Source: Dictyostelium discoideum (lineage: Eukaryota). From it: a stretch of 64,000 nucleotides of DNA. The stretch is from the NCBI GenBank assembly GCA_000004695.1, contig CM000150.2, positions 3,424,001 through 3,488,000 of the forward strand, in the 5' to 3' direction. Position 1 is the stretch's first letter. Each line of letters opens with the position of its first letter. Shown piece after piece: positions 55,681 to 64,000 of the stretch. Position numbers and translations under genes: made by a program. Below the pieces are notes generated by a model. The model was not told where the DNA came from and made no database searches. It saw only the letters and a list, made by a program, of their open reading frames with translations.

Positions 55681-55900
55681 CAATCAAAAGGATTTCCAAT
55701 ATACTTTGGCTTTAAAAATAAATTTATTCAATTTGATTTCTTATTATTATTTATTAGACAAAAAAAAAAAAAAAAAAAATAACTTTAATAAATTTGGGTC
55801 CAAATAAAAATGATAGCCAATATACTGGCATTAATAATAGAATTTTTTAATTTTATTATTTATTTTTATTCATTAACAAAAAAAAAAAAAAAAAAAAAAA
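55681..55900. repeat. Two adjacent copies of a ~85-bp intergenic repeat family. A third copy lies at 63893..64000.
   Basis: Copy A (55681-55779) is caatcaaaaggatttCCAATATACTTTGGCTTTAAAAATAAATTTATTCAATTTGATTTCTTATTATTATTTATTAGAC(A)n. Copy B (55790-55900) is gggtccaaataaaaaTGATAGCCAATATACTggcattaataatagaattttttaattttattatttatttttattcattaac(A)n. Copy C at 63893 is gggttcaatcaaaaaTGATAGCCAATATACTTTGTCTTTAAAAATAGAATTATTTAATTTTATTTCTTATTTTTATTTATAAGC(A)n. Pairwise identity is about 75-85%. Confidence 0.7.
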
Positions 55901-56475
55901 AAAAAATTAATTTTATTAATGGTTAATTTAATTCAATTTTTATTTTTATTTTTAAAACTGAAAAAAAAAAAAAAAAAAAATAAAAATAAATAAATAAAAA
56001 TAAAAATAAAAATAAAAATGCAAAAAAAAAAAAAAAATAAGCACTAAATTTTAAAACTTTATAGGATAATTATTTCCCTAAATTAATTAACTATTTTTTA
56101 AAATTTTATTTTATTCATTTTTTATTTTTTATTTTTTATTTTTTATTTTTTTCAAAGTATTATTTAAATATTAAATATTAAATTTAATCCATTAATATTT
56201 TTTCTGTAATTGCATATACAACAAACGGGTGCAAAAACGAGAAGGATATTTTTAATTTTAAATTTTTTTTTTTTTTTTTTTTTTTTTAGCATGTAAAAAA
56301 AAAATTGGTTTTTTATTTTTTTTTTTTTTTTTTTTTTATTTTTATTTTTGCAACCTTTTTTTTTTAAATTGTAATAATAATATCAATCACATATAAAATT
56401 ATATTTATTTTAAAAAGAATTAAAAAAAATAAAATAAAATAAAAAAGGAAATATAAAAGAAATTAAAAAAAGAAA

Positions 56476-57471
56476 ATGTCTTTTAAAGCTATAATACTAT
56501 TGTGTTTGATAGCACTTTGTAAGTATTTATTATTATTTTATTTTATTTTATTTTATTTTATTTTATTTTATTATAATTATTATAATTCTAATATTTTTTA
56601 TTATATTGCAATTTTATTATTATTTCTAAATAAAAAAAAAAAAAATAAAAATAAAAAAAAAAAAAAAATAAAAAAAAAAAAAAAATAAAAAAAAAAAAAA
56701 ATGGGTAATAGGTGCTGAAAAAGCTTTAGGTGCAATTTTTGAATTAAAAATTGAAACACCTGATGTACAATTTTGCACTATATCAAATGGAACCTATAAT
56801 GTTGATTTTAGTGGTCCATTCTTTAGATTTTCCGATTCATCTTTAGCAGAAGAATATATAGTTAGAGACGTAGTAGGTGGATTTTATTATATTAATCAAG
56901 CAGGAAGAAATGCCAGATTTCACTTAGACGAATTCATTTACAATTCTCTCTATGGTAATAATTCCTATGAATATGCAACCAACTCAACCCTTGCATGTGC
57001 TTCTAATATGGCAACATATATGTGCAGTTACACTTTTGTTGGAAGTAAGTTTACTATTTTTACTATTATCAATTTCATTCTATTTTTTGTATATAACAGA
57101 AATTCTAACCATTTTTTCAATATTTATTTATTTATTTATTAATTATTCAAAAAGCTACACCTCCATGTAATGCACTTTGTGACCCAGTAGCTACATGTGC
57201 AGATGGATTTACTTATGGAGGTCAAGTTATTCCACCTGCATCTGTTTCAGACTGTGAATTCCAAGGTTCAAGTGCATCTGATTGCTCAGCAATTAATATG
57301 AAAGGTTTAATGGGCGACTGGAAACACAAAGTCGTAGAATTTATACCTCCAACTATTGATATACATCCAGGTGGTTTAGTAAGAGGATCTTTGTTAGGTT
57401 TTGGTGTTTTAATCGGACTCTTATTGGTAATCGGTTCATTAGGTGTCATCATGAAATTCCAAAATAAATAA
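56476..57471 (+). CDS. Small type-I membrane protein (signal peptide, ~200-aa Cys-containing ectodomain, one TM, 6-aa tail). Exons 56476..56518, 56712..57044, 57155..57471.
   Basis: Exon 1 is MSFKAIILLCLIAL then GTAAGT. Exon 2 is a 111-codon stop-free frame with no Met (C)AEKALGAIFELKIETPDVQFCTISNGTYNVDF...YTFVG. Exon 3 is TTPPCNALCDPVATCADGF...GGLVRGSLLGFGVLIGLLLVIGSLGVIMKFQNK*. The track ORF 56952..57170 is in the wrong frame. Confidence 0.45.
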
Positions 57472-58393
57472 ATTATCTTTTAACTAGAAGTAGAAAAGTA
57501 ATGAAAAATAGATAAAAAAAAAAATAATAATAATAATAATAATAATAATAATAATAATAATAATAATAATAATAATAATAATAATAATAATAATAATAAT
57601 AATAATAATAATAATAATAATAATAATAATAATAATAATAATAATAACAAAAAAAAGTGTAAATATACTATAAATAGCTTATCATATTAATGTAATCATA
57701 ATAAAACCAGTCGAAAATTTTTTAAAGAACAAAACAAAATAAAAAAAATAAAAAAAATCATCACCAAGTCTTTTTTATATGAATGGCCCATTCATTATCT
57801 CTTCAAATTTCAATTATCATATATATTAACATGTTTTTTAAAGTTTCCATTTTTTTTATTTTTTTTTTTTATTTATTTTTAAATATTAATAATAGTAAAA
57901 CGATTTAAAAAAATAAAAAAAATATTGTGTCTAATAAAAAAAAAAAAAATAGTAGAAATGTTGTTAATTTTATTTATCATTTTAAAATTGATCAGATTTA
58001 ATTATTTTATTTTTTATTTATTATTATTTCCCACACCACCCTTTTTAATCTTTTTCAAAATAATAATAATGATAAATAATAATAAATAATTTCTAAAAAT
58101 AAATATTATTTTAACTTTGTACCAATAATATAAAATTATTATTTAAAAAAAATCAATATCCGTTTTATTTATGTTAATATTATTGGTGGTATAAACTAAA
58201 TTATTAATACTATAGTATGGTAATTGGTTATATTTAAACTATTGACAATCAGATTATCAAAAAAAAAAAAAAAAAAAAAAAAAAAAAGAACTGGTTGATC
58301 TCTACATCCATATATAAATTATTATCTGAGCTAATGGTACTATTATTATTATTACTGGAGATGTTGTAAACTAATAGCAAATATTAATTAGTC

Positions 58394-61533: not shown

Positions 61534-61943
61534 AATTTAAATTTTTTATACATATTTGTAGGATGAGTGGTATTAATAAATAAATATTTTAAAATGTAGC
61601 AAACCCACACAAATTCAAAAATAAAATAAAATAAAATAAAATAAATGTAATAATAGAGTTAACCAGTCAAAACATTTGTATTACAATACGATAATTGTTT
61701 ATTAATAATAAATATAATAATAGAGTGTTATTTATTTATTTATTATTTATTTATTTATTTATTTATTTATTTATTTATTTATTATTGATGTTAAATTATT
61801 TTAAAAAGAAAAAAATAAAAATTGATAAAAACATGATACTGAGTGCTCGAGCACTACTTTTAAAAAAATGTTATCAATTTGATAGCGGTTTTAATAAAAT
61901 GGATATTGTTTTTTCCCTCACCTCGTCTTTGTAGGATATTACA

Positions 61944-63242
61944 CTATTTACAACAACAAGGAATACCAAAATAATGGAGATGGTCATAAATACTTAAACC
62001 TATTACAGAATCTGAACATATTGGATCTTCACCGCTATCATTACAAACGATATAAGTTGTGTTGGTTGGATAATAAACTTCAGTTGGTACATGATGATAA
62101 TCTAATAATCCTTCCATTGGTACATGTGGTACTAAATCATGTTGATTAACTAATTTTATTAATTATTAATTATTAAATTAGTATATTTATAACTATTATT
62201 ATTATTTTTATTTTTATTTAATTTCAATAAAAAAAACCTTACCAACACGATAATTATTCTTATGAATTTGGTTGAAATATCCAACAAAAATTGAATCACC
62301 AACACGTGGTGAACCATATGTGTATGAATATGTTGGTAATGTGTACCATCCTTGAACCTCTGCAACACATAATGTTGCTAAAGCTGCACCCAAACTATGA
62401 CCAACAACCCAAATTTCTTTGCAATCTGATCCACATTTAGCCAATGCTGTATCTATTGATGTTCTCACTTGACTACTAACTGACTATATTTTTTAAAATT
62501 ATTTACAAAAAATAAATAAAAAAAAAAAAGTTAATAAACTATTTTGTTCATTTGTTTTATTTTTTTATTTTTTTTTTTTTTCTTTTTTTTTTCTTTCTCA
62601 AATAAAACTACAATTAATACCTACAGCCCAACCTCTATAAAAACCATCATGAACTTTAGCTTGTGGATAAGGTGGATATATAGTTTCTAAAAATTTAAAA
62701 TTTGTAATCCATGAATCTAGATTTCATTCATTCATTTAAATTATTAATTGATTGAATAAATAATTGGATTATTAATTGTTTGAATAAATAAATAATTATT
62801 AATTGATTGGTTGATTAATTAATTAATTGTTTGTATTAATTATTTAAAATTTATGAATTATTAATTTTGATAATAAAAAATACTAACCAACATCCATAGA
62901 ACCACGGAATGAAACAATCACTTGATTATTAGTGTAACCAACAAAGGCCTGAGTATTTGTAGTTACATTAAAAATTGCTGATACTATATTAAAACCAGGT
63001 AAGTTTTTACAAGTTGTGCAATTCCAATTTTGAATATCTGGTCCGTTGCAATATGCAGCATATGAAAATTGAACAAAAATTTCTGCTACTGCTTGATCAT
63101 ATGGGAATGAAGGTAATGAATTCTCTAAATTTATTTGTTGTTGTTGTTGTTGTTGTTGTCCATCACCATTTATTTTAATACTATTACAAAAGTTTATCAT
63201 TAAAAATGAAATTATAATACATGAAATTATTGATTTAATCAT
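61944..63242 (-). CDS. Secreted class-3 (fungal-type) triacylglycerol lipase. Exons complement(62888..63242, 62625..62716, 62243..62483, 61944..62149).
   Basis: Signal peptide MIKSIISCIIISFLMINFCNS. Lipase_3 landmarks VSFRGSMDV|DSWITNFKF...VHDGFYRGWA|SVSS..IWVVGHSLGAALATL (nucleophile elbow GHSLG) ...RV|VNQHDLVPHVP. Donors GTTAGT, GTAGGT, GTAAGG. Confidence 0.7.
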
Positions 63243-63892
63243 TTTATTATTATTTATTATTATTATAATTATTAATATTATTATTATTATTTTTTTTTTT
63301 TTATATGAAACTGAAATTGAAAAAGAAAAAGCAAGTAAACATAAAGATTAAAAAAAAAAAAAAAAAAGCGCAAGTGTGTTTAATAAATAAAAAAAATAAT
63401 GTATGAAAAGAAAAAAAAAAAAAAAAAAAAAAAAAAAAAAAAAAAAAAATTAAATGAATAATTATTAATTAAAAATAAAAGAATTAAGGTGTTTTTTTAA
63501 GTTGATCTGATTTGTGCAGAAAATAAAAAACTGCCACAGGTTTTTTTTTTTTTTTTTTTTTTTTTTTTTTTTTTTTTTTTTTTTTTTTTTTGTTTGCAGT
63601 TTTAAGAGACACATAAAAAGATAATTTTTTTTTTTTTTTTTTTTTTTTTTTTTTTTTTTTTTTTTGTGTGAAAGTAAAATTTCCCAAGATATTTATTTTA
63701 TTTTTTATTTTTTTTTTTTATTTTTTTTATTTTTTTTTGGATATGTTGGTACCCAAATTTGATCATTTTAATCTTAATCAAACCATCATTTTCTATTTTA
63801 TTCCAATATACACCATCAAAAAACAATCAAATTAAATTATTATAATTAACTCGTTTATCACTAAAAATATGAAAAAAAGATTATATTTTTAT

Positions 63893-64000
63893 TTTTTATT
63901 ACTTAAAATCGGGTTCAATCAAAAATGATAGCCAATATACTTTGTCTTTAAAAATAGAATTATTTAATTTTATTTCTTATTTTTATTTATAAGCAAAAAA
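63893..64000. repeat. Third copy of the ~85-bp repeat family, truncated by the window end
   Basis: See 55681..55900. It shares the core TGATAGCCAATATACTTTG-CTTTAAAAATA and the AT-rich tail. It lies about 650 bp upstream of the lipase start on the minus strand. Confidence 0.65.

What the first reader, a model, noticed from the sequence alone, without database searches (positions are those of the whole stretch)
55681..64000. Previously unnoticed ~85-bp repeat family with three copies, all in 5' regions of minus-strand genes
Copies at 55681, 55790 and 63893 share a conserved core (g)ggtYcaa..aaaaTGATAGCCAATATACTTTGgCTTTAAAAATArAaTTaTTtAATTTtATTTCTTATT and each ends in an A-run. Two sit in tandem 290-510 bp upstream of the cas1 ATG. 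The third sits about 650 bp upstream of the lipase ATG. The 75-85% identity means they are not recent duplicates. They could be a SINE/MITE-like mobile unit, a shared cis-regulatory module (both host genes are lipid enzymes), or a small-RNA gene family.
Basis: seen in the sequence. Interest (0 to 1): 0.5.

Follow-up and report, generated by a model that had tools for sequence, protein, structure and literature searches.

The report
Decaying low-copy intergenic repeat in Dictyostelium
Three old copies of a roughly 95-base, A-tract-terminated stretch of non-coding DNA sit at two nearby places in the Dictyostelium discoideum genome; they are real but are decaying like junk DNA and show no sign of function.

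Summary
The window is Dictyostelium discoideum DNA (21% G+C). It holds three same-strand copies of a ~95-nt unit, each followed by a pure A-run of 20-33 nt. Two copies form a 119-bp tandem repeat 280-520 bp upstream of cycloartenol synthase (cas1). The third lies 8.2 kb away and is cut by the window end. Pairwise identity is 75-83%.

All three copies are at the same positions in five D. discoideum / D. cf. discoideum assemblies. There they change as fast as the neighbouring intergenic DNA and carry different deletions in different lineages. They are undetectable at both loci in D. citrinum, D. dimigraforme and D. firmibasis.

- No further copy turned up in about 210 kb of other D. discoideum-clade sequence, including a paralogous lipase locus.
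- No Rfam family, consistent RNA fold, DUSE promoter motif or terminal inverted repeats were found.
- Target-site duplications are not significant, and no tRNA gene lies within 10 kb of any copy.

My best reading is a neutral, lineage-restricted, low-copy repeat. It was made by local duplication between A-tracts: a tandem pair plus one nearby ectopic copy. A relic of a short poly(A)-tailed retroposon is the main rival. A whole-genome copy count, which I could not run, would decide between them. Interest is low.

The parts
55646..55668 (+). A-run (23 nt) immediately 5' of copy A, so the tandem pair is bracketed by A-tracts
55668..55759 (+). Copy A of the ~95-nt unit (AAAATTGTATTCAATC...TTATTTATTAGAC)
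   Evidence: nhmmer E=2e-16; alignments
55760..55779 (+). A-run (20 nt) that ends copy A
55780..55795 (+). 16-nt spacer TAACTTTAATAAATTT between the A-run of copy A and the GGGTCC head of copy B; part of the 119-bp tandem period
55786..55877 (+). Copy B of the unit
   Evidence: nhmmer E=3e-16
55878..55906 (+). A-run (29 nt) that ends copy B; its length varies among strains (9-29 nt)
55682..55897 (+). Tandem array of A and B as called by Tandem Repeats Finder: period 119, 1.8 copies, 82% matches
63901..63994 (+). Copy C of the unit, the copy closest to the family consensus (95.6%)
   Evidence: nhmmer E=2e-20
63995..64000 (+). Start of the A-run that ends copy C. It is cut by the window end and is 33 A in L003 (18-23 A in other strains). 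It is followed by GAATTTCTTTCTTAAATATTATTTTTAC and, about 80 bp further on, by the stop codon of a minus-strand DUF3522-family gene.

Best explanation
The three copies are old, low-copy duplicates of one ~95-nt piece of intergenic DNA that is bounded by A-tracts. They have no present function and are drifting and eroding like the DNA around them.

Origin (inferred). Recombination or replication slippage between the A-tracts on either side of the unit produced the 119-bp head-to-tail pair upstream of cas1. At about the same time one more copy was laid down 8.2 kb away in the same orientation, next to another A-tract, by ectopic copying primed on A-tract microhomology (templated repair or gene conversion).

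Timing. These events happened before D. discoideum and 'D. cf. discoideum' split. They happened around or after the split from D. citrinum.

What is shown: the copies, their boundaries, their presence at the same positions in five assemblies, their background rate of change and lineage-specific deletions, and their absence elsewhere in the sample.

What is inferred: that the copying was DNA-level rather than RNA-mediated, and that the genome holds no further copies.
For: - Three copies, all on the same strand, at two loci 8.2 kb apart. There is none elsewhere in the 64-kb window. There is none in 127 kb around six actin genes of D. discoideum / D. cf. discoideum, and none in 21 kb around a paralogous lipase.
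- A and B form a 119-bp-period tandem repeat that includes the A-run and a spacer. A-runs bracket the units.
- The copies occupy the same positions in five assemblies (L003, L004, L015, L005, L014).
- Divergence between orthologous copies (L003 versus L004) is 90-91%. The flanking intergenic DNA is 91-94%. There is no excess conservation.
- Lineage-specific erosion. In L005, copy A has lost its 5' end, copy B about 30 nt and copy C its central 37 nt. In L014, copy C is reduced to its last ~28 nt.
- Flanking duplications are no better than in random AT-rich pairs (P = 0.22-0.80).
- No tRNA gene lies within 10 kb of any copy, whereas all D. discoideum non-LTR retrotransposons sit about 50 bp upstream or about 100 bp downstream of tRNA genes (PMC5633606).
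- An A-rich run occupies the position next to copy C in D. citrinum (A16) and D. firmibasis (A7). The 'tail' of copy C may therefore pre-date the copy.
Against: - The sample searched outside the two loci is about 210 kb of a 34-Mb genome, so a dispersed family of up to a few hundred copies cannot be excluded.
- All three copies share the same 5' and 3' limits. Homology does not extend into the flanks between locus A and locus C. Every copy ends in a pure A-run. This is also what a discrete poly(A)-tailed retroposon would look like.
- Divergence is star-like, with copy C closest to the consensus (A-B 82%, A-C 88%, B-C 87% between per-copy consensuses; C is 95.6% identical to the overall consensus). 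This is not the pattern expected if A and B were a tandem duplication later than C. It fits copies drawn from one master equally well.
- No clean empty site could be recovered. The middle of both intergenic regions is unalignable in the sister species.
Confidence: 0.5

Rival explanations
1. Relics of a short, non-autonomous, poly(A)-tailed retroposon (SINE-like, or a fixed-length 3' fragment of a non-LTR element). Its transcripts would have been reverse-transcribed at nicks in A/T-tracts. Copy B would have inserted next to the tail of copy A. The family is now inactive, of low copy number, and decaying.
For: Every copy ends in a pure, length-variable A-run where homology stops. All copies share a common 5' boundary, and there is no flank homology between the loci. 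The arrangement is head-to-tail with an A-run between A and B. Divergence from a consensus is star-like, with C least diverged. The element is restricted to one clade.
Against: No significant target-site duplications, although power is low in old, 85% A+T sequence. No tRNA-, 7SL- or 5S-like head, and no A box; only a weak B-box resemblance, GGTTCAATC. No tRNA gene within 10 kb, while all known D. discoideum non-LTR elements, the only known source of the enzymes, integrate next to tRNA genes (PMC5633606). No extra copy in about 210 kb of other clade sequence. The A-run at locus C may be ancestral.
Confidence: 0.3
2. A functional unit: either a cis-regulatory module shared by the cas1 and lipase promoters (lipid metabolism), or a small family of short RNA genes.
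For: The copies lie in promoter-containing intergenic regions of two lipid-related genes. The consensus contains a small palindrome, GCCAA-N6-TTGGC, and the consensus folds better than shuffles (z = -2.6).
Against: The rate of change equals that of the flanking DNA, whereas real conserved blocks nearby are almost invariant across five species. Sister lineages carry independent deletions of different parts, including most of copy C in L014. The copies are absent or unrecognisable upstream of cas1 and the lipase in D. citrinum, D. dimigraforme and D. firmibasis and at a paralogous lipase. Copy C is closer to the 3' end of another gene than to the lipase. The individual copies do not share a fold (z = +0.9, -2.4, -0.9), and the palindrome is broken in copy C. 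No Rfam match. No WCCCAYAA (DUSE) within 150 nt (PMC7919456).
Confidence: 0.08

Closest known systems
Low-copy tandem or segmental duplication of intergenic DNA between homopolymer tracts (unequal exchange, replication slippage, templated repair)
   Same: Head-to-tail pair with a 119-bp period that includes the A-run and a spacer. Third copy nearby and in direct orientation. Boundaries fall at A-tracts. Evolution is neutral and no target-site duplication is seen.
   Different: The ectopic copy has exactly the unit's limits, and the three copies diverge in a star-like way. Simple stepwise duplication does not predict either feature.
SINEs and other poly(A)-tailed non-autonomous retroposons (such as Alu; EhSINEs of Entamoeba)
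   Same: A short discrete unit with an A-tail of variable length. Copies are 75-88% alike and lie in intergenic DNA. One copy abuts the tail of another.
   Different: No polymerase III head, no demonstrable target-site duplications, and only two loci found. No SINE is described in D. discoideum in the papers read, and its known non-LTR elements are tRNA-gene targeted.
TRE5/TRE3 non-LTR retrotransposons of D. discoideum (5'-truncated copies)
   Same: They would leave short 3'-end fragments that end in oligo(A).
   Different: TRE copies lie about 50 bp upstream or about 100 bp downstream of tRNA genes (PMC5633606); here there is none within 10 kb. Truncated copies would have different 5' ends, but these share one. 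Sequence identity to TRE 3' ends could not be tested.
Class I RNAs and other DUSE-driven ncRNA genes of Dictyostelium
   Same: Short, multi-copy and intergenic.
   Different: No DUSE about 60 nt upstream, no terminal stem or 11-nt motif, no Rfam hit, no T-run terminator on the sense strand (an A-run instead), and not conserved across Group 4 species.

Membership tests
SINE / poly(A)-tailed retroposon | A-rich tail at the 3' end of every copy | tested here: met
   A20, A29 and A33 follow A, B and C. Lengths vary among strains (9-47 nt).
SINE / poly(A)-tailed retroposon | Target-site duplications flanking each copy | tested here: inconclusive
   The best flank alignments score no better than random AT-rich pairs (P = 0.22-0.80). 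Power is low for old copies in 85% A+T DNA.
SINE / poly(A)-tailed retroposon | Polymerase III head derived from tRNA, 7SL or 5S, with A and B boxes | tested here: not met
   No Rfam or ARAGORN match on the copies. Only GGTTCAATC resembles a B box, matching 7 of the 9 specified positions of GGTTCGANNCC (consensus from my own knowledge), and there is no A box.
SINE / poly(A)-tailed retroposon | Many dispersed copies in the genome | tested here: inconclusive
   Two loci only, in the 64-kb window, 10 kb of extension and 148 kb of unrelated D. discoideum-clade loci. The whole genome was not available to any tool. Metagenome and GTDB pattern scans were empty.
SINE / poly(A)-tailed retroposon | 3' end shared with an autonomous partner element | not testable with these tools
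   No TRE or other Dictyostelium transposon sequence could be obtained.
TRE5/TRE3 non-LTR retrotransposon fragment | Position about 50 bp upstream or about 100 bp downstream of a tRNA gene (PMC5633606) | tested here: not met
   The only tRNA genes in the window are at 7039-7262. There are none in L003-L015.
MITE | Terminal inverted repeats and a short fixed target-site duplication | tested here: not met
   By eye, the 5' end (AAATAAAATTGGATTC) and the 3' end (TTATTTATTAGC plus the A-run) are not inverted complements of each other. The folds pair only A/U stretches. No flank duplication is seen.
Dictyostelium ncRNA gene (Class I RNA or other DUSE-driven gene) | DUSE promoter element about 60 nt upstream; conserved stem and motif (PMC7919456) | tested here: not met
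   WCCCAYAA (motif from my own knowledge) has six matches in the window, none within 2.8 kb of a copy. No Rfam family matches. The copies do not share a fold.
Cis-regulatory module | Conservation above the neutral background and presence at orthologous or paralogous promoters | tested here: not met
   90-91% identity inside the copies against 91-94% in the flanks. Lineage-specific deletions. Absent in D. citrinum, D. dimigraforme and D. firmibasis and at the paralogous lipase.
Local tandem or segmental duplication | Head-to-tail array, nearby copies in direct orientation, no transposition hallmarks | tested here: met
   TRF reports period 119, 1.8 copies. The third copy is 8.2 kb away on the same strand. 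No target-site duplication is seen.
Local tandem or segmental duplication | Homology extends beyond the unit into the flanks of the dispersed copy | tested here: not met
   The upstream flanks of A and C align no better than random AT-rich windows (score 24, null mean 29).

The most novel reading that the evidence does not exclude
The unit is the remnant of a previously undescribed, tRNA-independent, poly(A)-tailed short retroposon of the D. discoideum lineage. It would be the first SINE-like element in a genome whose known retroelements are all confined to tRNA genes or centromeres.
Probability: 0.2. Interest if true: 0.5.

Novelty: new member of a known kind. Interest (0 to 1): 0.15.

Why it matters
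As it stands, it matters little. It is one more low-copy repeat in a genome full of homopolymer tracts and simple repeats, with no sign of function. It is a tidy example of how A-tracts bound and may seed small duplications, and of how quickly such DNA erodes between sister Dictyostelium lineages.

It would matter moderately only if a whole-genome search revealed a dispersed family. That would imply retroposition away from tRNA genes in D. discoideum, contrary to the current picture that all its retroelements use 'safe' sites.

Tried and rejected
- D. citrinum copy upstream of cas1. MAFFT placed a D. citrinum segment in register with copy A. Its local alignment score is reached by 27% of random AT-rich windows and nhmmer does not report it. 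I rejected it as evidence of an ancient conserved copy.
- Longer duplicated segment. By eye, the 85 bp upstream of A and of C looked related. The score is below the null mean. Rejected.
- Target-site duplications. AATTCTTAAATA / AATTTCTT..TAAATA around C, and the two 16-nt spacers after the A-runs of A and B, looked promising but are not significant.
- A third, degenerate tandem unit after copy B. The profile does not detect it.
- Splicing the lipase by hand to fetch the flank. I solved this through cluster members.
- Copy-number proxies. Two metagenome scans and one GTDB scan for the core found nothing. A full-text search of papers for four core 13-14-mers found nothing. A search of 1.8 billion proteins with the open frame across copy A, for spurious ORFs over other copies, found nothing. 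These are largely uninformative, because none of these collections is expected to hold Dictyostelium DNA.
- Rfam at permissive thresholds around both loci gave only chance-level hits outside the copies.
- A DUSE-like TCCCATTA lies about 75 nt upstream of copy A in the window. It is CC only in L003 and CT in other lineages, so it is not a conserved promoter.
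Full report
WHAT THE WINDOW IS

The window has 21% G+C and is full of A/T homopolymer runs and (AAT)n tracts. The minus-strand gene at 52704-55389 is cycloartenol synthase. Its large exon is 100% identical to a D. discoideum protein whose cluster includes 'cycloartenol synthase [Dictyostelium discoideum AX4]'. The minus-strand gene at 61944-63242 is a class-3 lipase, DDB_G0270934. The sequence is therefore Dictyostelium discoideum nuclear DNA.

CHECKING THE OBSERVATION

A three-way alignment shows 78% mean column identity. 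A 25-nt core occurs twice in the window against 0.00 expected in shuffles.

A profile built from the copies finds exactly three places in the 64 kb, with E-values of 1e-16 to 1e-20, and nothing else below E = 1:
- A at 55668-55759
- B at 55786-55877
- C at 63901-63994

Pairwise identities are A-C 83%, B-C 83% and A-B 75%.

Each copy runs straight into a pure A-run: 20 nt after A and 29 nt after B. Copy C is cut by the window end. The same locus in another D. discoideum assembly (L003) shows it complete, followed by 33 A. A-runs of at least 18 nt occur about once per 600 bp of AT-rich DNA here. Three copies each abutting one is not chance, so the A-run is part of the unit or defines its edge.

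Tandem Repeats Finder reports A and B as one array of period 119, 1.8 copies and 82% matches.

CONTEXT

Copies A and B lie 280-520 bp upstream of the cas1 ATG. The region is a divergent promoter region, shared with a plus-strand gene that starts at 56476 (280 aa in L003).

Copy C is 660 bp upstream of the lipase ATG. It is only about 100-190 bp beyond the stop codon of the next minus-strand gene (DUF3522 family), which lies just outside the window. 'All in 5' regions of minus-strand genes' is thus partly a window-edge effect.

No tRNA gene lies near any copy. The only two in the window are at 7039-7262, and there are none in the 10 kb beyond the window end or in any fetched locus.

COMPARISON WITH RELATIVES

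Through the lipase and cas1 proteins I fetched the same chromosomal region from nine other assemblies.

All three copies are at the same positions in three D. discoideum assemblies (L003, L004, L015) and in two 'D. cf. discoideum' assemblies (L005, L014). They therefore pre-date the split of these lineages.

They are not conserved as functional elements would be:
- Between L003 and L004 the copies are 90-91% identical, and the flanking intergenic DNA is 91-94%.
- In L005, copy A has lost its 5' end, copy B about 30 nt of its 3' half, and copy C its central 37 nt.
- In L014, copy C is reduced to its last ~28 nt plus the A-run, after a ~135-bp deletion.

By contrast, a 48-bp block at 55501-55548 and two blocks near 56212 and 56350 are almost invariant across five species.

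In D. citrinum, D. dimigraforme and D. firmibasis the profile finds nothing at either locus. A D. citrinum segment that MAFFT placed opposite copy A scores no better than 27% of random AT-rich windows. The middle parts of both intergenic regions cannot be aligned among these species. Absence and divergence beyond recognition therefore cannot be told apart, and no clean empty site is available.

IS IT A FAMILY?

No tool gives DNA-level access to the D. discoideum genome, so I sampled it.
- The major actin protein is encoded by many identical genes. It brought in six unrelated 21-kb loci from D. discoideum and D. cf. discoideum. None holds a copy.
- A paralogous lipase locus of D. discoideum (21 kb) holds none either.

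Together with the rest of the window and its extension, about 210 kb contain only the two loci. This rules out a very abundant family. At the local density of one locus per 37 kb, about 4 more would be expected in the 148 kb of unrelated loci alone. It does not rule out tens to a few hundred copies in 34 Mb.

Scans of metagenomes and GTDB genomes, a text search of papers for the core sequence, and a protein-level search for spurious ORFs across other copies were all empty. They carry little weight.

WHAT IT IS NOT

- Not a known RNA family. Rfam at gathering thresholds finds only the two tRNAs, and permissive searches around both loci give only chance-level hits outside the copies.
- Not a DUSE-driven ncRNA gene. 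No WCCCAYAA lies within 2.8 kb of a copy, whereas expressed Dictyostelium ncRNA genes carry DUSE about 60 nt upstream (PMC7919456).
- No shared RNA fold. The copies fold differently, with z-scores of +0.9, -2.4 and -0.9. The small GCCAA-N6-TTGGC palindrome is broken in copy C.
- Not a MITE. There are no terminal inverted repeats.
- Not a typical TRE fragment. D. discoideum non-LTR retrotransposons integrate about 50 bp upstream or about 100 bp downstream of tRNA genes, and its retroelements are found only near tRNA genes or in centromeres (PMC5633606). The copies also share one 5' end rather than showing variable truncation.

HOW IT AROSE

Two readings remain.

(a) DNA-level local duplication. 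The unit upstream of cas1 is bracketed by A-runs (55646-55668, 55760-79, 55878-906). Unequal exchange or slippage between such runs gives exactly a head-to-tail pair whose period includes the run and a spacer. The third copy is close (8.2 kb), on the same strand, and abuts an A-rich run that is also present at that position in D. citrinum (A16) and D. firmibasis (A7). This fits copying primed on A-tract microhomology. There are no significant target-site duplications.

(b) A short poly(A)-tailed retroposon. The same 5' and 3' limits in all copies, the lack of flank homology between loci, an A-tail on each copy and star-like divergence with C nearest the consensus are what a discrete retroposed unit would show. 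Against it are the missing duplications, the missing polymerase III head, the tRNA-gene specificity of the only known reverse-transcriptase sources, and the lack of other copies in the sample.

I put (a) at about 0.5, (b) at about 0.3, and any functional reading at under 0.1. The conclusion common to (a) and (b) is that the copies are neutral, eroding relics. That conclusion is well supported, at about 0.85.

VERDICT

The repeat is real, and the description is accurate apart from the window-edge effect on copy C. It is most likely an ordinary low-copy duplication of intergenic DNA restricted to the D. discoideum clade. The link to 'lipid genes' is a coincidence of neighbourhood. One whole-genome search with the consensus would settle the remaining question.

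Noticed in passing
window 55501-55548: ATCAGTGCGATCATGTGATGATTGATAGCGAATTTTTACGAATTTTCC lies 110-160 bp upstream of the cas1 ATG. It is almost invariant in D. discoideum, D. cf. discoideum, D. citrinum, D. dimigraforme and D. firmibasis, while the DNA around it is unalignable. It is a candidate cas1 promoter or 5'-UTR element. Rfam gave only a chance-level C/D-box hit here.
   Followed up: partly
window 56212-56241 and 56350-56402: Two further blocks, GCATATACAACAAACGGGTGCAAAAACGAG and GCAACC..AAATTGTAATAATAATATCAATCACATATAAAATTAT, are conserved between D. discoideum, D. cf. discoideum and D. citrinum. They lie upstream of the plus-strand gene that starts at 56476.
   Followed up: no
window ~58170-59700 (minus strand); L003 13543-15074: A segment of about 2.2 kb carrying a 336-aa gene is present in the window and in L003. 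It is absent from the same interval in L004, L005, L015 and D. citrinum. L014 has a different 577-aa gene at that place, and D. firmibasis, where gene order differs, has a 577-aa gene next to the lipase. Gene content varies between close lineages.
   Followed up: no
L003 8287-9425: The annotated DUF3522-family gene model in this assembly runs across copy C. The models in L004, L005, L015 and D. firmibasis end about 300 bp earlier. This is probably an annotation artefact caused by the (AAT)n tract.
   Followed up: no
window 7003-7262: tRNA-Asn (7039-7113) and tRNA-Ala (7190-7262) lie on the minus strand. A second B-box-like GGTTCGACTCTC sits about 25 bp downstream of tRNA-Asn, which is the 'external B box' typical of Dictyostelium tRNA genes (my own knowledge). 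No retrotransposon is inserted beside them.
   Followed up: no
L001 ~9225-9260 (D. citrinum, between the DUF3522 gene and the lipase): An inverted repeat, GGTGATC-T14-GATCAC, sits where D. discoideum has copy C. A related GTGGTGATATC..GAT segment survives upstream of copy C in L005.
   Followed up: no
whole window: There are 66 A or T homopolymer runs of at least 18 nt, and long (AAT)n/(ATT)n tracts (for example 55176-55264 inside cas1, and 22250-22480). These are ordinary for this genome, but they swamp generic repeat finders.
   Followed up: no
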